Shown here: one piece after another, positions 3,446 through 16,108 of the stretch | Numbering within the stretch: position 1 is the stretch's first letter | How the letters are laid out: the number at the start of each line of letters is the position of its first letter | Source: a virus | Lineage: Duplodnaviria; Heunggongvirae; Uroviricota; Caudoviricetes | Direction: 5' to 3' (one strand) | IMG/VR virus record: IMGVR_UViG_3300045988_124840 | Length of the DNA: 16,108 nucleotides | Notes under the pieces: model-generated | Told to the model about the DNA's origin: nothing | Seen by the model: the letters and a program-made list of their open reading frames with translations, nothing else | Databases searched by the model: none | Made by a program: the position numbers and the translations under genes

Positions 3446-3717
3446 GTATTCGTATTGAAATTGGCGAACGTTATGTCGTTACCAGTGACAGCTTTCAGTT
3501 TATTCTCCACGAGAAAAAGAGAGCGGAAAGCGGTAAAAACGCCGGTCAGGAATGGCTGGCGGTGGTTGGTTATTACCCGAAATTAAGCCAGCTCGTTTCC
3601 GGCCTGATGCATCACGATATTCTGACCGGAAGCGCAAAGTCTTTTGCTGATTTAAACGCGCAGGTTGAGCAACTCAGCAAGCGTTGTTCAGAGGCTTTTG
3701 GCTCATATGGCCGTTAA
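3442..3717 (+). CDS. Small early protein (P2 orf83-like, 91 aa)
   Basis: ATG at 3442 overlaps the orf82 stop (ATGA). Its 3' end overlaps the start of A. Confidence 0.65.
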   Translation: MSIRIEIGERYVVTSDSFQFILHEKKRAESGKNAGQEWLAVVGYYPKLSQLVSGLMHHDILTGSAKSFADLNAQVEQLSKRCSEAFGSYGR

Positions 3718-5983
3718 AGCCTCCGGGCGTTTTGTCCCTCCGTCAGCATTTGCCGCAGGCACCGGTAAGACGTTTACCGGTGCTTATGCATGGAACGCGC
3801 CACGCGAGGCTGTCGGGCGCGAAAGACCCCTTACACGTGACGAGATGCGTCAGGTGCAAGGTGTTTTATCCACGATTAATCGCCAGCCTTACTTTTTGCG
3901 CTCGCTGTTTACTTCACGCTATGACTACATCCGGCGCAATAAAAGCCCGGTGCACGGGTTTTATTTCCTCACATCCACTTTTCAGCGTCGTTTATGGCCG
4001 CGCATTGAGCGCGTTAATCAGCGCCATGAAATGAACACCGACGCGTCGTTGCTGTTTCTGGCAGAGCGTGACCACTATGCGCGCCTGCCTGGAATGAATG
4101 ACAAGGAGCTGAAAAAGTTTGCCGCCCGTATCTCATCGCAGCTTTTCATAATGTATGAGGAACTCTGCGATGCCTGGGTGGATGCGCATGGCGAGAAAGA
4201 ATCGCTGTTTACGGATGAGGCGCAGGCTCACCTGTATGGTCATGTTGCTGGCGCTGCACGTGCTTTCAATATTTCCCCGCTCTACTGGAAAAAATACCGT
4301 AAAGGACAGATGACCACGAGGCAGGCATATTCTGCCATTGCCCGCCTGTTTAACGATGAGTGGTGGACTCATCAGCTTAAAGGCCAGCGTATGCGCTGGC
4401 ATGAGGCGTTACTGATTGCTGTCGGGGAGGTCAATAAAGACCGTTCTCCTTATGCCAGTAAACATGCCATTCGTGATGTGCGTGCACGCCGCCAGGCAAA
4501 TCTGGAATTTCTTAAATCGTGTGACCTTGAAAACAGGGAAACCGGCGAGCGCATCGACCTTATCAGTAAGGTGATGGGCAGTATTTCTAATCCTGAAATT
4601 CGCCGGATGGAGCTGATGAACACCATTGCCGGTATTGAGCGTTACGCCGCAGCAGAGGGTGATGTGGGGATGTTTATCACGCTGACCGCGCCGTCAAAGT
4701 ATCACCCGACACGTCAGGTCGGAAAAGGCGAAAGTAAAACCGTCCAGCTAAATCACGGCTGGAACGATGAGGCATTTAATCCAAAGGATGCGCAGCGTTA
4801 TCTCTGCCATATCTGGAGCCTGATGCGCACGGCATTCAAGGATAATGATTTACAGGTCTACGGTTTGCGTGTCGTCGAGCCACACCACGACGGAACGCCG
4901 CACTGGCATATGATGCTTTTTTGTAATCCACGCCAGCGTAACCAGATTATTGAAATCATGCGTCGCTATGCGCTCAAAGAGGATGGCGACGAAAGAGGAG
5001 CCGCGCGAAACCGTTTTCAGGCAAAACACCTTAACCGGGGCGGTGCTGCGGGATATATCGCGAAATACATCTCAAAAAACATCGACGGCTATGCACTGGA
5101 TGGTCAGCTCGATAATGATACCGGTAGGCCGCTGAAAGACACAGCTGCGGCTGTTACCGCATGGGCGTCAACGTGGCGCATTCCGCAATTTAAAACGGTT
5201 GGTCTGCCGACAATGGGGGCTTACCGTGAACTACGCAAATTGCCTCGCGGCGTCAGCATTGCTGATGAGTTTGACGAGCGCGTCGAGGCTGCACGCGCCG
5301 CTGCAGACAGTGGTGATTTTGCGTTGTATATCAGCGCGCAGGGCGGGGCAAATGTCCCGCGCGATTGTCAGACTGTCAGGGTCGCCCGTAGCCCGTCGGA
5401 TGACGTTAACGAGTACGAGGAAGAAGTCGAGAGAGTGGTCGGCATTTACGCGCCGCATCTCGGCGCGCGTCATATTCATATCACCAGAACGACGGACTGG
5501 CGCATTGTTCCGAAAGTGCCGGTCGTTGAGCCTTTGACTTTAAAAAGCGGCATCGCCGCGCCTCGGAGTCCTGTCAATAACTGTGGAAAGCTCACCGGTG
5601 GTGATACTTCGTTACCGGCTCCCACACCTTCTGAGCACGCCGCAGCCGTGCTTAATCTGGTTGATGACGGTGTTATCGAATGGAATGACCCGGAGGTCGT
5701 GAGGGCGCTCAGGGGCGCATTAAAACACGGCCTGAGAACACCAAACCGTCAGCAAAGAAACGGAAGCCCGTTAAAACCGAATGAAATAGCGCCATCGGCC
5801 AGGCTGACCCGGTCGGAGCGTATGCAAATTACCCGTATCCGCGTTGACCTTGCTCAGAACGGTATCAGGCCGCAGCGATGGGAGCTTGAGGCGCTGGCGC
5901 GTGGCGCGACCGTAAATTATTACGGGAAATCTTTCAATTATCAGGTCGCTGATGAGTGGCCTGGATTTTTGTTACCCATTTGA
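3707..5983 (+). CDS. A: Rolling-circle replication initiator/endonuclease A (HUH superfamily)
   Basis: Long ORF with an HUH-type motif (PHWHMMLF) and paired tyrosines (GYIAKYISKN), typical of P2 gpA-type nicking proteins. Start placed at the first ATG (3707, MAVKAS...). The track's 3665 start is TTG; an in-frame TTG at 3698 is also possible. Confidence 0.9.
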   Translation: MAVKASGRFVPPSAFAAGTGKTFTGAYAWNAPREAVGRERPLTRDEMRQVQGVLSTINRQPYFLRSLFTSRYDYIRRNKSPVHGFYFLTSTFQRRLWPRIERVNQRHEMNTDASLLFLAERDHYARLPGMNDKELKKFAARISSQLFIMYEELCDAWVDAHGEKESLFTDEAQAHLYGHVAGAARAFNISPLYWKKYRKGQMTTRQAYSAIARLFNDEWWTHQLKGQRMRWHEALLIAVGEVNKDRSPYASKHAIRDVRARRQANLEFLKSCDLENRETGERIDLISKVMGSISNPEIRRMELMNTIAGIERYAAAEGDVGMFITLTAPSKYHPTRQVGKGESKTVQLNHGWNDEAFNPKDAQRYLCHIWSLMRTAFKDNDLQVYGLRVVEPHHDGTPHWHMMLFCNPRQRNQIIEIMRRYALKEDGDERGAARNRFQAKHLNRGGAAGYIAKYISKNIDGYALDGQLDNDTGRPLKDTAAAVTAWASTWRIPQFKTVGLPTMGAYRELRKLPRGVSIADEFDERVEAARAAADSGDFALYISAQGGANVPRDCQTVRVARSPSDDVNEYEEEVERVVGIYAPHLGARHIHITRTTDWRIVPKVPVVEPLTLKSGIAAPRSPVNNCGKLTGGDTSLPAPTPSEHAAAVLNLVDDGVIEWNDPEVVRALRGALKHGLRTPNRQQRNGSPLKPNEIAPSARLTRSERMQITRIRVDLAQNGIRPQRWELEALARGATVNYYGKSFNYQVADEWPGFLLPI

Positions 5984-6243
5984 GTAAAAATGCAGCGTGA
6001 TTTTATATGCCTTTGAATGGATTATGCGAAGCGCCTCTAAGGCAGATGAGGAGCAATAGCATGCTGAAGTAGAAGGCTAAATTGTATTGAATCGCTAGCA
6101 TGTAATTTAAAGCAGCTATTTGATTCGAGTCATAAAAGAGCATCTATTTCGGCTAATAAAACCATTGCGAGTGACCTTTTGTCGAAGCATAATTCATCTC
6201 GAGCGAAGTCTTGCTAGTCTTTCATCGGAATGATGACAGGCGC

Positions 6244-6273
6244 AAAAAAACCACCCTGGCAGGTGGTTTTTTT
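6244..6273. terminator. Bidirectional intrinsic terminator
   Basis: AAAAAAACCACC / CTGGCA loop / GGTGGTTTTTTT: a perfect hairpin flanked by an A-tract and a T-tract, so it can terminate in either direction. It lies downstream of A (+) and directly downstream of the minus-strand small ORF at 6286..6399. Confidence 0.8.
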
Positions 6274-6285
6274 GTTTGAAGCATA

Positions 6286-6399
6286 CTAAAGAATAATACT
6301 TACATGGATATTACTGACGTTTACTGACAAACCACTTGGACTACCATATGGATAGCCAAAGAGGGCCAGAACGAGAATGCAGTAATAGCACTTCTTCAT
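6286..6399 (-). CDS. Hypothetical small hydrophobic peptide (37 aa, MKKCYYCILVLALFGYPYGSPSGLSVNVSNIHVSIIL)
   Basis: Not in the ORF track (too short). ATG at 6399..6397 is preceded on the minus strand by a near-consensus RBS AGGAGG with a 4-nt spacer. Hydrophobic N-terminal stretch; TAG stop at 6288..6286 followed by the terminator. Hand-translated. Confidence 0.4.
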   Translation of the reverse strand: MKKCYYCILVLALFGYPYGSPSGLSVNVSNIHVSIIL

Positions 6400-6971
6400 A
6401 TCTCCTCCTGTAAGCAGAGGGCAATTTCCGCCGATATATGCGCTTCTAAGGCGGAGTTACTATTTAGCGAAGTCTTGCCCTGAAATAATGCTCTGTTTAA
6501 ACGCAAAGTGATCTGGCATATCACCGAACAGAGAGCCTGAACAACACAACATATAGTATGTCGTTGTTTCTGGTTGCATTTTATGTTGTGTAATCCTGGT
6601 TTTGCATCAAGGATGTTTGAGCTTTTTTTGATATAGCTCAAAGTAAAAAGCAGAGACTACGGATGATAAGGTATTGAAAGCAATGTAAATTTTTTAAAGT
6701 TATTGGCGGCTAAAAAATGCACGGTTTCAATATGGTGGACTTAAATAAGCAATTAAAAAAGTCATAAATATCACTAAAATCATGGTGTTACGTTTTTTTT
6801 GTGGGAGCTGCGGTGACGCTTAAGTTGATTTGTCATTAAATAAGCCGTGCATGCAACAAGTGAATGTTTTTGCATGCGTCGGGGATGCCCGTTCCGGCTG
6901 CTTGCGGTCAGAGCTGGTGCGGATCCATAGTATCTATGCAACTGCATTAAAACCGCCACATGAAGCGGGCG

Positions 6972-6990
6972 GGCGAGGCGGGGAAAGCAC
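6972..6990. other. cos site: 19-nt P2-type cohesive end GGCGAGGCGGGGAAAGCAC
   Basis: Exact match to the P2/P4 cohesive-end sequence as I remember it. It is flanked on the left by a GC-richer segment (about 6800..6971), consistent with the cosR packaging region. Confidence 0.8.
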
Positions 6991-7150
6991 TGCGCGCAAA
7001 ATGTTCTTGAAATATTTGTGACATAAGCTAAGACACAAAATGATTGAAGGGCAGAGCAAATCCTACAGTCCTATGCTATTGTCTCATGTAATGCAGATAA
7101 GTTGAAAATTATCTTAAAATATAAGAGTAAAGACATTAAAAGGATTGGTT

Positions 7151-9412
7151 ATGAATAATAACTCTAAGTTATTAAGCTCTATCTCGGTTGAATCTGATTT
7201 CGAGAACCTTATAAAACTATATGCAAATGAGTTATTTGGTGGTGAAACATATCTGATCGGTGGTCCTTGGGATAATGGAAAGGATTTGGTAATAAAAAAG
7301 GGGAATAGAGAGTTAAAGCAAGCTGTACAAATATCTATTCAAGAGAAAAATATTGAAAGTAAGATTGCTCAAGATATTAAAAAAGTGGCGAAATTGGTTG
7401 ATGATCATTATTACCCGCCTGTATTATATTTTTTTTGGAGTCATTCAATATCTGAGCATTTATTGGATAAGATAAGAACAAATGCTCTTAAGGAAGATTT
7501 GATTAGATTGGAGTTTTATGATGCCAAACGGATCTCTCAAGATATTACAGATAAATACCCAGGGTTATTGAATTACTTAATAAAAGATATACATAAGATA
7601 AGTTCTAATACTGAAGATGCAATTAACTTGCAACAAAGAGCATTTTATGAATATTTATTGTTAAGCAAAGATAGTGCTAATTTAAAAAATGAAATAATAA
7701 AAGCTAGTATTATGTCTAATTTATATGATGGCGGGAAGTCTGCTGATGATATTCTAGAGAATCTAAAAGGTGTTAGTCTTACAAAACGTAGTTTACAGGG
7801 TAGACTGCAAAACCTAATTCATCAAAATAAAATTAGATTGAATGATGGTATATATAGCCTGTCACCAGAGGAAATTAAAAAGCTTGAGAATATAAATCTC
7901 CGTGAAATTGTCAGAAAAGAAGAGTTGTTATCAGTAATAAATAATGAGTTGCCCAGAAATACAAGTAAGAATCTGGCTGTTCAAGTTGTTGATTTAATAA
8001 TAAAGGCTTATGAAGAATCAATAAATGTCCAATTAACAGAAAGTAAATTTGAGCCTCCAAAATTACAGATATTCAAAACTATAGTACATAATTTAAAGGT
8101 GTTGATACGGCAGGAATATGATTTGGATGATGAGTCTTCGGATGCTTTAGCAAAAAAGCTAATGGAGTTGGCTGGTCAAAATGACTATTTATCCGAGCAT
8201 TGCTCTGCTAAATTATGTGTGAATCTTTTAAGTGATCGGAAATTAGAGAAATATATTGAAAATAAAAATTTTTATATCTACTTTGATGCGCCTGTTCTTA
8301 TTCCATATTTGATAACTCTTATGTTTGGAGATTTTGAGCTTTTTGATAAGTCGATTAAAAATATAAATTTACTGAGAGAGTGCATAAATCCCCTCAAAAA
8401 TAAACATCTGAGAGTTTCTAATGAACATTTTGAAGAAACTGCAAGGCACTACTCTGAAGCTGAAAAATTAAGTCAGTTTGTAACTGAAGATTTAATTAGT
8501 CAACTTGGTGAGTCGAAAAATGTATACTTTAATGTTTATATGCGGTGGAAAAACAAACAGCCTAAACGTACAGATTTTTACGATTTTACTTATGCTTTTC
8601 TAGGGTTGGATAAAGATGATATTTATGCGGGGTATAAGCATGACACATTTGCGCAATGCATTCATAATTTACTAGCGTCAGCAAATATTGTTGTAATTGA
8701 TAATAAAGACTCGGTGTCACAAGACTTTGTATTTAAAATAAAGCAAAAACTTAAAAGGGATTTGAATTCTTCACGTCCCGTTCGAGCCATAGAAAATGAT
8801 GTTATATGTGCTGCAACTTTGAGTGATGAAACCCTACATCTTGATTCCAATGGTTACTTCAGTACTCCCATGCTAATAACACTTGATAGATCTCAATATC
8901 TATTGAGAAGCATAGTAAGAAATGAAAGGAGACATGCTGAATGGTTGGTTTATACCCCTCAAAGAGCAATTGAACGTCTTTCCTTGGTGGGTTTAAAAAT
9001 ATCATCGGAATCGTTAAAGGATGGTGTTTTAGCAACCATATCAGAAGAATATTTCTTTAAAGAAAGTTCCAGTAGTTTGATTGATACTTTGGCTATTATC
9101 ATTGGAGATAATCAAGCAAGGCAAGGAGATGTTATTAGGCTTGCATCGCTTTTAAAAAGAAAGGTCAATGAGGAATCTATTGAGAATTCAGAAATTGATA
9201 TTGAACACTATAATAACATTAGTTATGTGCTTCTTTTCATTCATCGTGAATTTAAATCTGAATTTTCAAATATAATAAAAATTTTTGCTGAGGATAGTAG
9301 GCGAGATAAACTGGTTGAAGTTTTGTTATCCACTATTCAAGGAGTTTTTGATGAGAGTAAAAAGGAAATCTTGCGCTCAAATATAGGACGGTTGTTGGCT
9401 GAAATGGGATGA
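7151..9412 (+). CDS. Hypothetical AT-rich cargo protein (753 aa); possible N-terminal Mrr-like PD-(D/E)xK nuclease fold, rest unknown; candidate anti-phage defence protein
   Basis: Single long ORF with codon usage unlike the P2 backbone (AT-rich, Lys/Asn/Ile-rich). ATG at 7151 preceded by AAAGGA with a 6-nt spacer; the track start at 7145 is TTG. N-terminal segment FENLIKLYANELFGGETYLIGGPWDNGKDLVI ... QAVQISIQEK resembles the D-x-G-x-D ... Q-x-K core of Mrr-type restriction-endonuclease domains. No Walker A motif seen. Function is inferred from context only. Confidence 0.75.
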   Translation: MNNNSKLLSSISVESDFENLIKLYANELFGGETYLIGGPWDNGKDLVIKKGNRELKQAVQISIQEKNIESKIAQDIKKVAKLVDDHYYPPVLYFFWSHSISEHLLDKIRTNALKEDLIRLEFYDAKRISQDITDKYPGLLNYLIKDIHKISSNTEDAINLQQRAFYEYLLLSKDSANLKNEIIKASIMSNLYDGGKSADDILENLKGVSLTKRSLQGRLQNLIHQNKIRLNDGIYSLSPEEIKKLENINLREIVRKEELLSVINNELPRNTSKNLAVQVVDLIIKAYEESINVQLTESKFEPPKLQIFKTIVHNLKVLIRQEYDLDDESSDALAKKLMELAGQNDYLSEHCSAKLCVNLLSDRKLEKYIENKNFYIYFDAPVLIPYLITLMFGDFELFDKSIKNINLLRECINPLKNKHLRVSNEHFEETARHYSEAEKLSQFVTEDLISQLGESKNVYFNVYMRWKNKQPKRTDFYDFTYAFLGLDKDDIYAGYKHDTFAQCIHNLLASANIVVIDNKDSVSQDFVFKIKQKLKRDLNSSRPVRAIENDVICAATLSDETLHLDSNGYFSTPMLITLDRSQYLLRSIVRNERRHAEWLVYTPQRAIERLSLVGLKISSESLKDGVLATISEEYFFKESSSSLIDTLAIIIGDNQARQGDVIRLASLLKRKVNEESIENSEIDIEHYNNISYVLLFIHREFKSEFSNIIKIFAEDSRRDKLVEVLLSTIQGVFDESKKEILRSNIGRLLAEMG

Positions 9413-9503: not shown

Positions 9504-10538
9504 TTAGGTATCGCAAGTATCTAGTGAGTAGTTTTTAAAGCGGATGACCTCCTGACCGAGCCAGCCGTTTATCTCGCGGATCCTGTCCTGTAACGGGATA
9601 AGCTCATTGCGGACAAAGACCTTTGCCACTTTCTCAATATCGCCCAGTGACCCGACGTTCTCCGGCTTGCCGCCCATCAACTGAAAGGGGATGCGGTGCG
9701 CGTCCAGTAGGTCAGCGGCGCTGGCTTTTTTGATATTAAAAAAATCGTCCTTCGTTGCGACTTCACTGAGCGGGATAATTTTAATGCCGTCGGCTTTCCC
9801 CTGTGGGGCATAGAGAAACAGATTTTTAAAGTTGTTGCGGCCTTTCGACTTCACCATGTTTTCGCGGAGCATTTCGATATCGTTGCGATCCTGCACGGCA
9901 TCAGTGACGTACATGATGTATCCGGCATGTGCGCCGTTTTCGTAATACTTGCGGCGGAACAGCGTGGCCGACTCATTCAGCCAGGCAGAGTTAAGGGCGC
10001 TGAGATATTCCGGCAGGCCGTACAACTCCTGATTAATATCCGGCTCCAGCAGGTGAAACACGGAGCCGGGCGCGAAGGCTGTCGGTTCGTTGAAGGACGG
10101 CACCCACCAGTAAACATCCTCTTCCACCCCACGGCGGGTATATTTTGCCGGTGAGGTTTCCAGTCTGATGACCTTACCGGTGGTGCTGTAACGCTTTTCC
10201 AGAAACGCATTACCGAACACCAGAAAATCCAGCACAAAGCGGCTGAAATCCTGTTGTGAAAGCCACGGATGCGGGATAAATGTCGAGGCCAGAATATTAC
10301 GTTTGACGTAAATCGGTGAGCTGTGATGTACGGCAGCACGCAGGCTTTTTGCCAGACCGGTAAAGCTGACCGGTGGCTCATACCATCTGCCGTTACTGAT
10401 GCACTCGACGTAATCCAGAATGTCACGGCGGTCGAGTACCGGCACCGGCTCACCAAAGGTGAATGCCTCCATTTTCGGGGCGCTGGCGGTCATTGTTTTT
10501 GCCGCAGGTTGCGGTGTTTTCCCTTTTTTCTTGCTCAT
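9504..10538 (-). CDS. Q: Portal protein Q (344 aa)
   Basis: 344-aa ORF with ATG at 10538, lying near cos on the minus strand as in P2. Its start overlaps the stop of the upstream P-derived frame by 1 nt (TGATG). Length matches P2 gpQ. Confidence 0.9.
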   Translation of the reverse strand: MSKKKGKTPQPAAKTMTASAPKMEAFTFGEPVPVLDRRDILDYVECISNGRWYEPPVSFTGLAKSLRAAVHHSSPIYVKRNILASTFIPHPWLSQQDFSRFVLDFLVFGNAFLEKRYSTTGKVIRLETSPAKYTRRGVEEDVYWWVPSFNEPTAFAPGSVFHLLEPDINQELYGLPEYLSALNSAWLNESATLFRRKYYENGAHAGYIMYVTDAVQDRNDIEMLRENMVKSKGRNNFKNLFLYAPQGKADGIKIIPLSEVATKDDFFNIKKASAADLLDAHRIPFQLMGGKPENVGSLGDIEKVAKVFVRNELIPLQDRIREINGWLGQEVIRFKNYSLDTCDT

Positions 10539-10745
10539 CAGTAAAACTCCAGAATGGTGGATGTCAGCGGGGTGCTGATACCGGCGGTGAGTGGCTCATT
10601 TAACAGGGCGTGCATGGTCGCCCAGGCGAGGTCGGCGTGGCTGGCTTCCTCGCTGCGGCTGGCCTCATAGGTGGCGCTGCGTCCGCTGCTGGTCATGGTC
10701 TTGCGGATAGCCATAAACGAGCTGGTGATGTCGGTGGCGCTGACG
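10538..10745 (-). pseudogene. P: Truncated terminase large-subunit gene P (C-terminal ~68 codons only)
   Basis: Minus-strand frame ending ...LTAGISTPLTSTILEFY with its stop overlapping the Q start, the P2 P–Q arrangement. Upstream of about 10745 the same frame runs antisense to FII-like coding sequence, so only the 3' end of P is left. The upper boundary is approximate. Confidence 0.5.
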
Positions 10746-10750
10746 TCGTA

Positions 10751-11071
10751 TTCCCGGATTCGGTTATCTGGGAGCTTTACGCCGCAACCGGTGTGGATGC
10801 CGTCCCGATTCGTTTTGCTGGCTCTTACCAGCGCGACGATACCGGCGAAACGGTGGCCGTCGAGGTGGTCATGCGTGGCCGTCAGAAAGAAATCGACACC
10901 GGCGAGGGTAAACAGGGAGAAGACACCGAGTCGAAAATCTCCGTGGTCTGCACCTATTTCCGGCTGACGATGGACGGTAAGGAGCTGGTCGAAATCGACA
11001 CCATTAACATGATTGAGAAGGTGAACGGCGTCGACCGGCTGGAGCAACACCGCCGCAATATCGGCCTGTGA
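10751..11071 (+). pseudogene. FII: 5'-truncated tail tube gene FII (C-terminal ~105 codons)
   Basis: The C-terminal part of the + ORF (FPDSVIWELYAATGVDAVPIRFAGSYQRDD ... VNGVDRLEQHRRNIGL) is protein-like, matches the P2 FII C-terminus as I remember it, and sits in the expected place just upstream of E. The first ~47 residues of the track ORF look like non-coding read-through. No start codon or RBS for a full-length FII. The 5' boundary is approximate. Confidence 0.6.
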
Positions 11072-11127
11072 TTTTCATCCGGTCAGCCAGGCTGACCGGT
11101 TAACCCCGATTCAGAAGTGAGAAAACC

Positions 11128-11403
11128 ATGAACAAAGAAAATGTGATTACCCTGGACAATCCGGTCAAGCGTGGTGAGCAGGTTATCGAACAGGTCACGC
11201 TGATGAAACCCAATGCCGGGACGCTGCGCGGTGTCAGTCTGGCAGCGGTCGCGAACTCCGAAGTCGATGCACTGATTAAGGTGCTGCCGCGCATGACAGC
11301 ACCGATGCTGACCGAGCAGGAGGTCGCCGCGCTGGAACTGCCTGACCTTGTGGCGCTGGCCGGTAAGGTGGTCGGTTTTTTGTCGCCGAACTCGGTGCAG
11401 TGA
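11128..11403 (+). CDS. E: Tail assembly chaperone E (91 aa)
   Basis: 91-aa ORF directly upstream of the tape-measure gene. Contains the slippery T-run near its 3' end (see E+E'). Confidence 0.88.
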   Translation: MNKENVITLDNPVKRGEQVIEQVTLMKPNAGTLRGVSLAAVANSEVDALIKVLPRMTAPMLTEQEVAALELPDLVALAGKVVGFLSPNSVQ

Positions 11404-11555
11404 CGTTTCCGAAAAATCTGTCGGTCGATGACCTGATGGCGGATGTGGCTGTGATATTTCACTGGCCGCCATCAGAACTGTACCCCATGAGCCTGACCGA
11501 ACTCATCACATGGCGCGAAAAGGCGCTCCGGCGAAGCGGAAACACGAATGAGTAA
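11128..11555 (+). CDS. E+E': E+E' tail chaperone fusion made by programmed -1 ribosomal frameshift
   Basis: Slippery heptamer-like run GGTTTTTTG at 11374..11382 (six T's at 11376..11381). The -1 frame stays open from there to TAA at 11553..11555, overlapping the T start by 8 nt. This parallels the conserved G/GT-type chaperone frameshift upstream of tape-measure genes. Confidence 0.75.
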
Positions 11556-16053: not shown

Positions 16054-16080
16054 AAAAAATAAGCCCGTGTAAGGGAGATT
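16054..16080. repeat. 27-bp P2-type attachment core, right copy (att junction next to ogr)
   Basis: Identical 27-mer to 29..55. Together they define prophage ends with int at one side and ogr at the other, as in integrated P2. Confidence 0.85.
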
Positions 16081-16108
16081 ACACAGGCTAAGGAGGTGGT
16101 TCCTGGTA

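What the first reader, a model, noticed from the sequence alone, without database searches (positions are those of the whole stretch)
6286..6641. Small hydrophobic peptide ORF with a consensus RBS, overlapped by an upstream frame and followed by a terminator: possible toxin-like or small membrane protein module
On the minus strand, a 37-codon ORF (MKKCYYCILVLALFGYPYGSPSGLSVNVSNIHVSIIL) starts at an ATG preceded by AGGAGG at ideal spacing. Such a Shine-Dalgarno is unlikely by chance in AT-rich DNA. Its start overlaps the stop of a longer upstream frame (6396..6641, TTG-initiated, Cys-rich, no internal ATG), reminiscent of the mok/hok-style overlapping-frame arrangement in type I toxin loci. The ORF ends 13 nt before the bidirectional terminator at 6244..6273. 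The presumptive 5' region has inverted repeats (ACACAACAT at 6543..6551 pairing with ATGTTGTGT at 6583..6591; TTTGAGCT at 6616..6623 pairing with AGCTCAAA at 6635..6642) that could form regulatory RNA structure. The peptide does not resemble Hok, Ldr, TisB or Ibs by eye, so if real it would be a different family.
Basis: seen in the sequence. Interest (0 to 1): 0.6.

Follow-up and report, generated by a model that had tools for sequence, protein, structure and literature searches.

The report
Unannotated small-peptide and antisense RNA module
The 37-codon reading frame is a real, conserved gene for a small membrane-type peptide, paired with a predicted 74-base antisense RNA in a portable 540-bp cassette built like a type I toxin-antitoxin system, which is found unannotated in about 3% of complete E. 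coli genomes and in about 400 plasmids, mostly from Klebsiella.

Summary
The sequence features are present as described. Only some of them matter.

**What is real**
- The 37-aa ORF (6286..6399, minus strand) is under coding selection. It is intact in all 24 E. coli haplotypes, with 13 variable sites at codon positions [3,0,10].
- The peptide stays at 37-39 aa in divergent copies from Citrobacter, Klebsiella, Leclercia and Salmonella. dN/dS is 0.09-0.41.

**What is not**
- The 81-aa "mok-like" frame is not conserved. A 2-nt indel breaks it in 9 of 24 haplotypes.
- The two inverted repeats lie in or upstream of the predicted promoter and are not conserved.

**What it is**
- The unit is an autonomous block of about 540 bp (about 6115-6655).
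- The minus strand carries a predicted 328-nt mRNA with a structured 172-nt 5' UTR and a sequestered SD.
- The plus strand carries a predicted convergent sRNA of about 74 nt (6200-6274). Its promoter, TTGCGA-17-CATAAT, is conserved in every lineage.
- The two RNAs share the bidirectional terminator.
- The 5' end of the sRNA is complementary to a 14-17-nt site 62-65 nt upstream of the AUG. Three base pairs in this duplex show compensatory double changes.

**How it compares**
- The architecture resembles par/Fst of pAD1, and the design resembles timP/timR.
- It matches no Rfam, Pfam, NCBIfam, PHROGs or PADLOC family.
- Transcripts, toxicity and repression are inferred, not shown.

The parts
6115..6655 (.). 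Whole conserved module. It is an autonomous cassette found in P2-like prophages, a Citrobacter contig, a chromosomal-type metagenome contig and IncF plasmids.
   Evidence: The only part of the window that matches Citrobacter contig L038 is 6152-6649, at 72.5% identity. Multi-lineage alignments set the borders. Variation per nt among E. coli haplotypes is 0.10-0.20 inside the block, 0.32 in 5984-6214, and high again beyond 6704.
6286..6399 (-). 37-codon ORF plus stop, encoding a small peptide. It has an N-terminal KK, a hydrophobic segment CYYCILVLALFGY, then a PxGSxSG turn and an alternating polar/hydrophobic tail.
   Evidence: Intact in all 24 haplotypes. The 13 variable sites fall at codon positions [3,0,10], with 9 synonymous (counting TAG to TAA) and 4 non-synonymous. 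The peptide is 37 aa in six further lineages and 39 aa in the Leclercia and Salmonella plasmids. dN/dS is 0.09-0.41. A profile search of 1.84 billion representatives finds only about 8-10 small relatives.
6404..6409 (-). Shine-Dalgarno AGGAGG, 4 nt before the ATG.
   Evidence: GGAG is kept in all lineages. In folding, the SD is mostly paired, with P(unpaired) 0.02-0.40.
6415..6421 (-). Local anti-SD (CCCUCUG), predicted to pair with the SD.
   Evidence: SD partners in MFE structures lie 8-12 nt upstream in most lineages. CCC(U)CUG is conserved in the alignment. This is a prediction only.
6466..6479 (-). sRNA target site in the 5' UTR (GGCAAGACUUCGCU), ending 62-65 nt upstream of the AUG. It is copy 2 of the direct repeat.
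   Evidence: Exact 13-nt direct repeat of 6202-6214. It is the best duplex site in all 14 sequences tested, with dG -29 to -42 kcal/mol. Covariation was counted.
6491..6533 (-). Conserved 5' UTR hairpin: CUCUGUU...AACAGAG outer stem with a GGUGAU/AUCACU inner stem.
   Evidence: The outer stem is invariant. The inner stem has one compensatory A-U to G-C change and one G.U to A-U change.
6540..6568 (-). 5'-terminal hairpin of the predicted mRNA.
   Evidence: A hairpin starts within a few nt of the predicted 5' end in L006, L038, L051, L062, L066 and L067, with different sequences. One example is CCAGCCCCUACAGGUAGGGGCUGG in the Salmonella plasmids.
6244..6571 (-). Predicted toxin-type mRNA of 328 nt, with a 172-nt 5' UTR.
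   Evidence: The ends are inferred from the -10 box plus 7 nt and from the terminator. Equivalent RNAs of 321-342 nt are predicted in all lineages. Folding z-score is -2.1. No transcript data.
6578..6583 (-). Predicted -10 box of the mRNA promoter (TAAAAT; TAGAAT in some lineages).
   Evidence: TA(A/G)AAT is conserved in every lineage at a fixed distance from the conserved ATGCAAA, while the spacer sequence varies.
6601..6607 (-). Conserved ATGCAAA in the -35 zone of the mRNA promoter. It is a poor match to TTGACA.
   Evidence: Invariant in all lineages. Not picked up by the sigma-70 consensus scan.
6611..6650 (-). Conserved block upstream of the promoter (TTTTTACYTTG...TCAAnAAAA...AAACAT). 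It could be an UP element, an operator or a second promoter.
   Evidence: Conserved in all lineages, and homology stops at about 6650-6655. Function not determined.
6243..6274 (.). Bidirectional intrinsic terminator shared by both RNAs. It gives about 30 nt of 3' complementarity.
   Evidence: 13-nt perfect arms. It is nearly invariant across all lineages, while its flanks diverge.
6200..6274 (+). Predicted antisense sRNA of about 74 nt: 5' seed, variable hairpin, then terminator.
   Evidence: Same three-part layout, 72-76 nt, in 14 sequences. Folding z-score is -4.33, and 0 of 200 shuffles fold as well. No transcript data.
6201..6214 (+). Seed of the sRNA (GAGCGAAGUCUUGC). It is copy 1 of the direct repeat.
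   Evidence: The 14-bp core is 100% paired in 8 distinct sequence pairs. Three pairs are changed on both sides. Three independent one-sided changes all give G.U.
6217..6241 (+). Internal hairpin of the sRNA.
   Evidence: E. coli variation is confined to the loop (6228-6230) and the flanks. Other lineages have different sequences that still fold into a hairpin at the same place.
6165..6193 (+). sRNA promoter: -35 TTGCGA (6165-6170), 17-nt spacer, -10 CATAAT (6188-6193).
   Evidence: Found by the consensus scan. TTGCG(A/G) and CATAAT are conserved in all lineages. The spacer varies in sequence but is always 17 nt.

Best explanation
The region is a self-contained module of about 540 bp with the organisation of a type I toxin-antitoxin system.

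**Proposed parts**
- The minus strand gives an mRNA of about 330 nt. It has a structured 5' UTR of about 170 nt in which the Shine-Dalgarno sequence is held in a local hairpin.
- That mRNA encodes a 37-aa peptide with a signal-peptide-like, membrane-seeking N-terminus.
- From a stronger, near-consensus promoter on the plus strand, a convergent sRNA of about 74 nt is made. It ends at the same bidirectional terminator.

**Proposed action**
- The unstructured 5' end of the sRNA pairs with a 14-17-nt site 62-65 nt upstream of the start codon.
- The terminator hairpins of the two RNAs are also fully complementary.
- I propose that this pairing keeps the peptide from being made. It could do so by blocking a ribosome standby or activation site, or by provoking cleavage of the duplex.
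- Loss of the sRNA (loss of the plasmid or prophage, or shut-off of host transcription by an infecting phage) would then allow synthesis of a membrane-damaging peptide.

**Shown here**
- Coding selection on the ORF.
- Conservation of both promoters.
- Covarying sRNA:mRNA complementarity.
- Mobility of the cassette.

**Inferred**
- That both RNAs exist with these ends.
- That the sRNA represses translation.
- That the peptide is toxic.
For: **Coding**
- The ORF is intact in 24 of 24 haplotypes, with substitutions at codon positions [3,0,10].
- No other frame in the segment shows this bias while also staying open in every lineage.
- The peptide length is fixed at 37 aa (39 aa in one clade) across lineages whose DNA is about 72% identical or less.
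- dN/dS is 0.09-0.41 in 20 lineage pairs.

**Autonomous module**
- The Citrobacter contig shares only 6152-6649 with the window.
- The same block lies in unrelated contexts in 397-433 plasmid records and in a chromosomal-type contig.

**sRNA**
- The promoter footprint is TTGCG(A/G), 17 variable nt, then CATAAT.
- The predicted sRNA is 72-76 nt, with a seed, a hairpin and a terminator in all lineages. Folding z-score is -4.33.

**Pairing**
- There is an exact 13-nt direct repeat in the window. It extends to 15-17 nt in other lineages.
- The Leclercia and Salmonella clade has GGTAAGGCTTTGCTCA in both copies, against GGCAAGACTTCGCTCA elsewhere. That makes 3 compensatory pairs.
- Three independent single changes (L006, L051, L062) each give G.U in the proposed strand orientation, and would give A-C in the opposite one.
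- The 14-bp core is 100% paired. Slid registers are 28-44% paired. The covariation score is reached by 3 of 500 shuffles.
- The duplex always lands 62-65 nt upstream of the AUG.
- The SD is predicted to be paired in all lineages.

**Context**
- The block lies between gpA and cos, in the known P2 defence hotspot.
- It is retained in this heavily deleted prophage.
Against: - No transcript, 5'/3'-end, translation or toxicity data could be found for any copy.
- The mRNA promoter has a poor -35 element and was not picked up by the consensus scan, so its start site is uncertain. An alternative, TTGnnC-17-AAACAT, lies about 35 nt upstream.
- All three compensatory changes sit on one branch. Because the two sites are direct repeats in DNA, co-variation alone would also fit two binding sites for one protein, or gene conversion. 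Only the three G.U-compatible single changes favour RNA pairing specifically (rough chance about 0.03).
- The pairing site is far from the ribosome-binding site. Constrained folding gave no support for a simple model in which sRNA binding frees an anti-SD.
- The hydrophobic stretch of about 13-15 residues is short for a membrane-spanning helix, and the peptide lacks the charged tail typical of many type I toxins.
- TimP, the closest analogue in design, is toxic only on overexpression (PMC7667032).
Confidence: 0.72

Rival explanations
1. The gene and sRNA are as described, but the peptide is not a toxin. It would be a small membrane or exported peptide with a physiological role (for example superinfection exclusion, modulation of a membrane protein, or signalling) whose level is tuned by the sRNA.
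For: - The N-terminus looks like an uncleaved or cleavable signal sequence: KK, a hydrophobic core, then a conserved S-x-S-G (read).
- TimP, the closest design analogue, permits growth at native levels (PMC7667032).
- Purifying selection extends to the C-terminal half of the peptide.
Against: - The layout matches described type I toxin-antitoxin loci: sequestered SD, long structured 5' UTR, a promoter for the sRNA closer to consensus than that of the mRNA, and a home on plasmids and prophages.
- Naturally truncated copies of the ORF exist (P0036 and P0037), as seen for toxin genes.
Confidence: 0.17
2. There is no independent sRNA. The plus-strand elements are only the end of the early (gpA) operon, and the direct repeat is a pair of protein-binding sites or a relic of duplication. 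The small gene is then controlled in some other way.
For: - In P2-like prophages the terminator also ends the gpA transcript.
- Covariation of direct repeats is expected for two sites bound by one protein.
- No RNA data are available.
Against: - The -35 and -10 boxes, the 17-nt spacing and the seed are conserved in plasmid and chromosomal copies that have no gpA upstream.
- The spacer and the hairpin change in sequence but keep their length and fold.
- All three one-sided changes in the repeat are G.U-compatible in one orientation only.
Confidence: 0.07
3. This is the first reader's model: hok/mok-like translational coupling, in which the 81-aa TTG frame (6396..6641) is translated and delivers ribosomes to the 37-aa ORF through the ATGA overlap.
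For: The ATGA overlap exists in the window.
Against: - The frame is shifted by a 2-nt indel near 6573 in 9 of 24 haplotypes, and its substitutions fall at positions [3,6,6].
- The predicted transcription start (about 6571) lies inside the frame.
- There is no such frame in other lineages.
- There is no Hok family match.
Confidence: 0.02
4. The ORF is incidental, and the block is a purely non-coding element: a structured RNA, or a DNA element linked to packaging near cos.
For: - Parts of the block are more conserved than synonymous sites would be. Examples are 6466-6512 and the coding stretch 6356-6390.
- cos lies about 600 bp away.
Against: - Third-position bias, conserved length, conserved start, stop and SD, and dN/dS well below 1 across lineages.
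- The block occurs on plasmids with no cos site.
Confidence: 0.02

Closest known systems
par locus of Enterococcus faecalis plasmid pAD1 (Fst toxin mRNA RNA I / antitoxin RNA II)
   Same: - Convergent promoters and a shared bidirectional intrinsic terminator, whose complementary hairpins give one contact.
- DNA direct repeats transcribed in opposite directions give a second contact.
- An intramolecular hairpin hides the SD.
- The toxin is a peptide of about 33 aa, and the locus sits on mobile elements (PMC7472228; window features).
   Different: - There is one repeat pair here, not two.
- The pairing site is 62-65 nt upstream of the AUG, not over the translation initiation region.
- The sRNA is about 74 nt, against about 40 nt.
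- The peptide has no PxxxG core and no charged C-terminal tail, so it is not an Fst/Ldr peptide.
- The hosts here are Enterobacteriaceae, not Firmicutes.
timP/timR (ryfA, Rfam RF00126) of Salmonella and E. coli
   Same: - Enterobacterial, with an mRNA of about 300 nt and a 5' UTR of about 145 nt.
- A 38-41-aa peptide that starts MK, carries cysteines and has a signal-like hydrophobic segment.
- The sRNA pairs with the 5' UTR.
- The gene was long overlooked by annotation (PMC7667032).
   Different: - TimR is encoded divergently upstream, not convergently downstream.
- There is no nucleotide similarity and no significant peptide similarity to K-12 timP.
- RF00126 does not match, even at E<=10.
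- timPR is core-genome, whereas this module is on prophages and plasmids.
zorO/orzO, tisB/istR-1, shoB/ohsC, dinQ/agrB (enterobacterial type I systems with short trans-like pairing)
   Same: A short stretch of complementarity, here 14-17 nt, lies in a long 5' UTR away from the ribosome-binding site. The sRNA seed is at its 5' end (own knowledge; ZorO paper PMC3919570 listed).
   Different: - Those antitoxins are divergent and share no terminator with the toxin mRNA.
- Their toxins are unrelated amphipathic helices.
- The OrzO-P Rfam model scores 15.8 bits against a threshold of 60.
txpA/RatA and bsrG/SR4 of Bacillus subtilis prophage regions
   Same: Prophage-borne small membrane toxins with a convergent antisense RNA that overlaps the 3' end (own knowledge).
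   Different: - Those have long 3' overlaps of about 75-120 nt that drive RNase III decay.
- They have no second contact in the 5' UTR.
- The sequences and hosts are unrelated.
hok/sok
   Same: A small hydrophobic peptide, a structured mRNA with a hidden SD, and a home on plasmids and prophages.
   Different: - There is no conserved mok-like overlapping frame.
- There is no Hok/Gef domain.
- The antisense RNA is not opposite the leader ORF start.

Membership tests
Type I toxin-antitoxin systems (the class) | Small (<60 aa) hydrophobic peptide gene under selection | tested here: met
   37-39 aa, with a conserved hydrophobic core. Codon positions [3,0,10] and dN/dS 0.09-0.41.
Type I toxin-antitoxin systems (the class) | Adjacent gene for an sRNA complementary to the toxin mRNA | tested here: met
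   In silico only. There is a conserved promoter, a 72-76-nt hairpin-plus-terminator RNA, a 14-17-nt covarying duplex, and about 30 nt of terminator overlap. No transcript evidence.
Type I toxin-antitoxin systems (the class) | Peptide is toxic when expressed, and the sRNA blocks its synthesis | not testable with these tools
   Needs expression and reporter experiments. No publication with the peptide or seed sequence was found.
par/Fst (pAD1-type) | Convergent promoters with a shared bidirectional terminator | tested here: met
   Defined in PMC7472228.
par/Fst (pAD1-type) | Direct repeats giving a second region of complementarity that covers the translation initiation region | tested here: not met
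   A repeat-based second contact exists, but it ends 62-65 nt upstream of the AUG. There is one repeat pair, not DRa plus DRb.
par/Fst (pAD1-type) | Fst/Ldr-type peptide: hydrophobic domain with PxxxG(C) and a charged C-terminal tail | tested here: not met
   The peptides end in ...HVSIIL...NVNISL or ...LSIQVN, with no charged tail. No Pfam or NCBIfam hit.
timP/timR (RyfA, RF00126) | Match to the RyfA covariance model or to the TimP peptide | tested here: not met
   RF00126 is absent at the gathering threshold and at E<=10. BLAST against the K-12 locus finds only chance words. The best local peptide score is 23 over 10 residues.
timP/timR (RyfA, RF00126) | sRNA encoded divergently upstream of the toxin gene | tested here: not met
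   The sRNA promoter and seed lie downstream of the ORF on the opposite strand, in convergent orientation.
hok/sok | Conserved overlapping leader frame (mok) coupled to the toxin ORF | tested here: not met
   The 81-aa frame is broken in 9 of 24 haplotypes, with positions [3,6,6].
hok/sok | Hok/Gef family peptide | tested here: not met
   No Pfam, NCBIfam or PADLOC hit.
zorO/orzO | Match to the OrzO antitoxin RNA family | tested here: not met
   OrzO-P scores 15.8 bits against a gathering score of 60, and the match is driven by the terminator.

The most novel reading that the evidence does not exclude
This is an undescribed, horizontally mobile family of RNA-controlled membrane-toxin modules in Enterobacteriaceae. 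It has independently arrived at the par/Fst RNA architecture. It would act as an addiction or abortive-infection device on epidemic Klebsiella IncF plasmids, and as a protein-annotation-invisible occupant of the P2 cos-proximal defence hotspot. In some prophages it is the only thing lying between gpA and the portal gene.
Probability: 0.4. Interest if true: 0.75.

Novelty: new variant of a known kind. Interest (0 to 1): 0.62.

Why it matters
**Why it is overlooked.** Small genes and their antisense RNAs are routinely missed. RefSeq annotates nothing at this locus in 150 complete E. coli genomes, and nearly all of the roughly 400 plasmid records show no annotated feature under the match.

**What follows if it is a working toxin-antitoxin pair.**
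- It would be a stability or phage-exclusion determinant on widespread Klebsiella IncFIB/IncFII plasmids, including plasmids of the KPNIH1 outbreak strain.
- It would show that the P2 defence hotspot, so far analysed gene by gene at the protein level, also carries RNA-based cargo.
- It would be a second, unrelated example of the convergent "shared terminator plus direct repeat" control scheme known from Gram-positive par loci. That makes the scheme testable in E. coli genetics.

Tried and rejected
1. **The mok-like 81-aa frame.** Rejected.
2. **Other small ORFs in 5984-6760.** The 46-aa ORF at 6003..6143 (minus strand) is broken in most haplotypes. The 39-aa ORF at 6460..6579 (minus strand) is in frame with the 37-aa ORF, and gene callers sometimes fuse them into 88- or 97-aa products. 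The window has two stops between them, and the upstream part shows no third-position bias ([2,5,5] and [6,1,3]).
3. **Plus-strand frame 6120..6233.** It is open in the E. coli and Klebsiella lineages with a mild third-position excess [5,7,13]. It is closed in L038, L066, L067 and L069. Its conserved residues coincide with the sRNA promoter boxes and seed. Rejected as coding.
4. **The second direct repeat, 6031-6046 / 6440-6455.** Its left copy is not conserved.
5. **A switch model in which sRNA binding frees an anti-SD.** The target half-site GGUGGC and the segment just 5' of the anti-SD are complementary in all lineages. But constrained folding shows the SD already paired with or without blocking. 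Not supported.
6. **Rfam.** Only terminator-driven sub-threshold hits.
7. **Protein family libraries.** Pfam, PADLOC, NCBIfam and PHROGs returned nothing.
8. **Literature searches.** Searches for the peptide, its core motif and the seed sequence found no papers.
9. **Transcript evidence from the Klebsiella MGH 78578 dRNA-seq/RIL-seq study.** The plasmid sRNA candidates I checked (KpnR_124, KpnR_127 and KpnR_128 on pKPN3) are other loci, namely the hok region and an unrelated small ORF.
11. **Collection scans with a coding-core 20-mer.** The metagenome and viral scans returned only E. coli haplotypes.
Full report
**Setting.** The window is a P2-like prophage. It holds an integrase, C, cox, the early operon up to the replication gene gpA (3665-5983, plus strand), the portal gene Q (9504-10538, minus strand) and the tail genes T, U, D and ogr. 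The terminase gene is cut down to its last ~70 codons, and the head, lysis, baseplate and sheath genes are missing, so the prophage is defective. The P2 cohesive-end sequence GGCGAGGCGGGGAAAGCAC lies at 6972-6990. The finding therefore sits between gpA and cos, at the right end of the phage genome. This is the cos-proximal hotspot known to carry old, tin and many anti-phage systems (PMC9122126). Reference P2 has orf91, tin and old there instead of this sequence.

**Observation.**
- The 37-aa ORF is at 6286..6399 on the minus strand.
- AGGAGG is at 6409..6404, 4 nt before the ATG.
- The 81-aa TTG frame is at 6396..6641 and overlaps the start through ATGA.
- There is a perfect 13-nt-arm inverted repeat with A and T runs at 6243-6274.
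- Both upstream inverted repeats are present.

An SD followed by ATG is not rare enough on its own: there are 2 in the window against 0.57 expected, and 23 of 200 shuffles reach 2. The case has to rest on comparison with homologues.

**The ORF is a real gene.**
- The segment after gpA is present at 90% identity or more in 150 of 5426 complete E. coli genomes, always unannotated. It is also in two phage records, one of which calls the 37-aa ORF a hypothetical protein.
- From E. coli, IMG/VR and metagenome loci I obtained 24 distinct haplotypes in four groups, 86-100% identical.
- The ORF is intact in all 24. Its 13 variable sites fall at codon positions [3,0,10], with 9 synonymous (including TAG to TAA) and 4 non-synonymous.
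- The in-frame sequence upstream shows no such bias ([2,5,5] and [6,1,3]), nor does the terminator region.
- No other frame in the segment combines this bias with being open in every lineage.
- The 81-aa frame is shifted by a 2-nt indel in 9 haplotypes and has positions [3,6,6]. The mok-like reading is rejected.

**The unit is a mobile cassette.**
- A degenerate search for the peptide core in one genome per species hit one Citrobacter freundii contig. That contig shares with the window only 6152-6649, at 72.5% identity.
- A related peptide (P0029) led to a chromosomal-type contig with unrelated neighbours.
- BLAST of that copy found 433 plasmid records, 396 of them from Klebsiella and mostly conjugative IncFIB/IncFII plasmids. 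Nearly all had no annotated feature under the match, and the flanking contexts varied.
- More distant copies lie on Leclercia and Salmonella IncF plasmids.
- Every copy has the same layout and a peptide of 37 aa, or 39 aa in the distant clade. Examples are MNKWHYCILVLALFGYPTGSQSGWSLTVSHISISFIM, MNRVCLCILVLTLFGYPVGSQSGWSIYVSHINVNISL and MDRRDCMCLFILTLISHLITGQESWMVYLNHISLTVQFY.
- Pairwise dN/dS is 0.09-0.41.
- A profile search of 1.84 billion cluster representatives found only about 8-10 relatives, all small. They include two apparently truncated copies.

**A convergent sRNA.**
- Left of the terminator, on the plus strand, the consensus scan found TTGCGA-17-CATAAT at 6165-6193.
- Across all lineages the two hexamers, and an A/T-rich element upstream, are conserved. 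The 17-nt spacer is free to vary in sequence but never in length. This is the footprint of a working promoter.
- Transcription from about 6200 to the terminator gives an RNA of 72-76 nt. It has an open 5' end, an internal hairpin whose sequence differs between lineages but still folds, and the invariant terminator.
- In the window this RNA folds with a z-score of -4.33.
- In E. coli haplotypes, variation inside the hairpin is confined to its loop.

**Pairing with the mRNA.**
- The first 13 nt after the predicted start, AGCGAAGTCTTGC (6202-6214), recur exactly at 6466-6478. An RNA from the plus strand at the first site is therefore complementary to a minus-strand RNA at the second.
- In other lineages the match is 15-17 nt.
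- The Leclercia and Salmonella clade has GGTAAGGCTTTGCTCA at both sites where the others have GGCAAGACTTCGCTCA. That is three pairs changed on both sides.
- Three independent single changes (sRNA C to U in the E. coli W type, mRNA A to G in L051, mRNA C to U in L062) all give G.U in this orientation. They would give A-C mismatches in the opposite one.
- On the paired alignment the 14-bp core is 100% paired, slid registers give 28-44%, and the covariation score is reached by 3 of 500 shuffles.
- RNAduplex places sRNA nt 1-17 on the same site in all 14 sequences, ending 62-65 nt upstream of the AUG. dG ranges from -29 to -42 kcal/mol.
- Caveats: the three double changes share one branch, and co-variation of direct repeats would also fit two sites for one DNA-binding protein. 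The orientation-specific G.U changes argue for RNA.

**The mRNA.**
- On the minus strand, TA(A/G)AAT (6583-6578) and ATGCAAA (6607-6601) are conserved at fixed spacing around a variable spacer. Homology ends near 6650-6655.
- Taking the start 7 nt after the -10 box gives RNAs of 321-342 nt with 5' UTRs of 161-181 nt.
- Hairpins start at the very 5' end in most lineages, with unrelated sequences in the distant clade.
- A CUCUGUU...AACAGAG hairpin with a covarying inner stem is conserved. 4 of 33 alifold pairs show compensatory changes.
- The SD is predicted to be mostly paired in every lineage, usually with a CCC(U)CUG element 8-12 nt upstream. P(unpaired) is 0.02-0.40.
- The -35 match is poor, the promoter was not found by the scan, and an alternative promoter about 35 nt upstream cannot be excluded.
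The second lies upstream of the -35 zone and is not kept in other lineages.

**Mechanism.**
- I take the most likely reading to be a type I toxin-antitoxin-like module.
- The mRNA is intrinsically poorly translatable. It is kept silent by an sRNA made from the better promoter.
- The sRNA contacts the mRNA at the complementary terminator hairpins and at the 5' UTR site.
- When the sRNA is lost, the small membrane-directed peptide is made.
- How pairing 62-65 nt from the AUG blocks translation is not resolved. It could be standby-site occlusion, as for tisB/istR-1, or duplex cleavage.
- A model in which sRNA binding releases the anti-SD was tested by constrained folding and not supported.
- Toxicity is inferred from architecture only.

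**Comparison and novelty.**
- The RNA architecture is that of par of pAD1: convergent promoters, a shared bidirectional terminator, direct repeats for a second contact, and a hidden SD (PMC7472228). Here, however, the contact does not cover the start codon and the peptide is not Fst/Ldr-like.
- In design it resembles enterobacterial timP/timR: an mRNA of about 300 nt, a long 5' UTR and a 38-41-aa signal-like peptide (PMC7667032). TimR is divergent, though, and there is no sequence or covariance-model similarity.
- No Rfam, Pfam, NCBIfam, PHROGs or PADLOC family matches any lineage.
- No paper in the library contains the peptide core or the seed.
- The two P2-hotspot studies do not mention RNA-based cargo.
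- I therefore rate it a new variant of a known kind. The reservation is that the library is incomplete, and the type I toxin-antitoxin database T1TAdb could not be queried.

**Distribution in P2-like prophages.**
- The window-type peptide is indexed in 1230 blocks of the assembly collection. In the 8 places shown it always lies next to gpA.
- The cos-proximal cargo beside it differs from place to place: nothing at all, AAA-ATPase genes, a retron Ec48 type, SIR2, or the 755-aa protein of this window.

Noticed in passing
window 7145-9412 (+): A 755-aa ORF lies between cos and the portal gene, inside the P2 defence hotspot. It has no Pfam, PADLOC or PHROGs family, and RefSeq calls it hypothetical. 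It is a candidate unknown anti-phage gene.
   Followed up: partly
window 6972-6990 (+): The 19-nt P2 cohesive-end sequence GGCGAGGCGGGGAAAGCAC is here. In this element the variable cargo lies on the Q side of cos, and the peptide/sRNA module on the gpA side.
   Followed up: partly
window 10538-11547: The prophage is defective. The terminase gene is reduced to its C-terminal ~70 codons, followed almost at once by the tape-measure gene T, then U, D and ogr. The head, lysis, baseplate, fibre and sheath genes are absent.
   Followed up: partly
window 16057-16108 (-): The 3' part of the CyaR sRNA gene (67.7 bits) lies at the window edge. The prophage therefore sits at the cyaR/ogrK-side attachment region.
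   Followed up: no
E. coli records (for example NZ_CP119441.1, locus L005): Many 'complete' chromosomes put the module at exactly 2525-2994, because the record starts at the first base of gpA. My inference is that assembly-rotation software takes the P2 replication gene as the start gene.
   Followed up: no
window 6118-6135 (+ strand reading TTGATTCGAGTCATAAAA): A conserved element (TTTATGAC-N5-ATCAA on the minus strand) lies about 60-80 nt upstream of the predicted sRNA start. It is kept in all 37-aa lineages and partly in the distant clade. It may be a regulator-binding site for the sRNA promoter.
   Followed up: no
window 6356-6390 (-): The coding stretch for YCILVLALFGY is identical at the DNA level between E. 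coli and Citrobacter, with no synonymous change. It carries few changes in other lineages. This suggests an extra RNA-level constraint inside the ORF.
   Followed up: no
window 6457-6462 (-): Two in-frame stops (TAG TAA) separate an upstream 39-codon frame from the 37-aa ORF. Other haplotypes have one stop or none, so gene callers sometimes report 88- or 97-aa fusion proteins.
   Followed up: yes
proteins P0036 and P0037: These are natural variants in which the peptide gene is truncated after about 16-21 codons and runs on into unrelated sequence. In P0036 that sequence reads like the translated terminator and seed region. They may be inactivated copies.
   Followed up: no
loci L052-L059: In many isolate assemblies the contig ends exactly 226 nt upstream of the P0029-type gene. 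This suggests a repeated element, such as an insertion sequence, directly next to the module.
   Followed up: no
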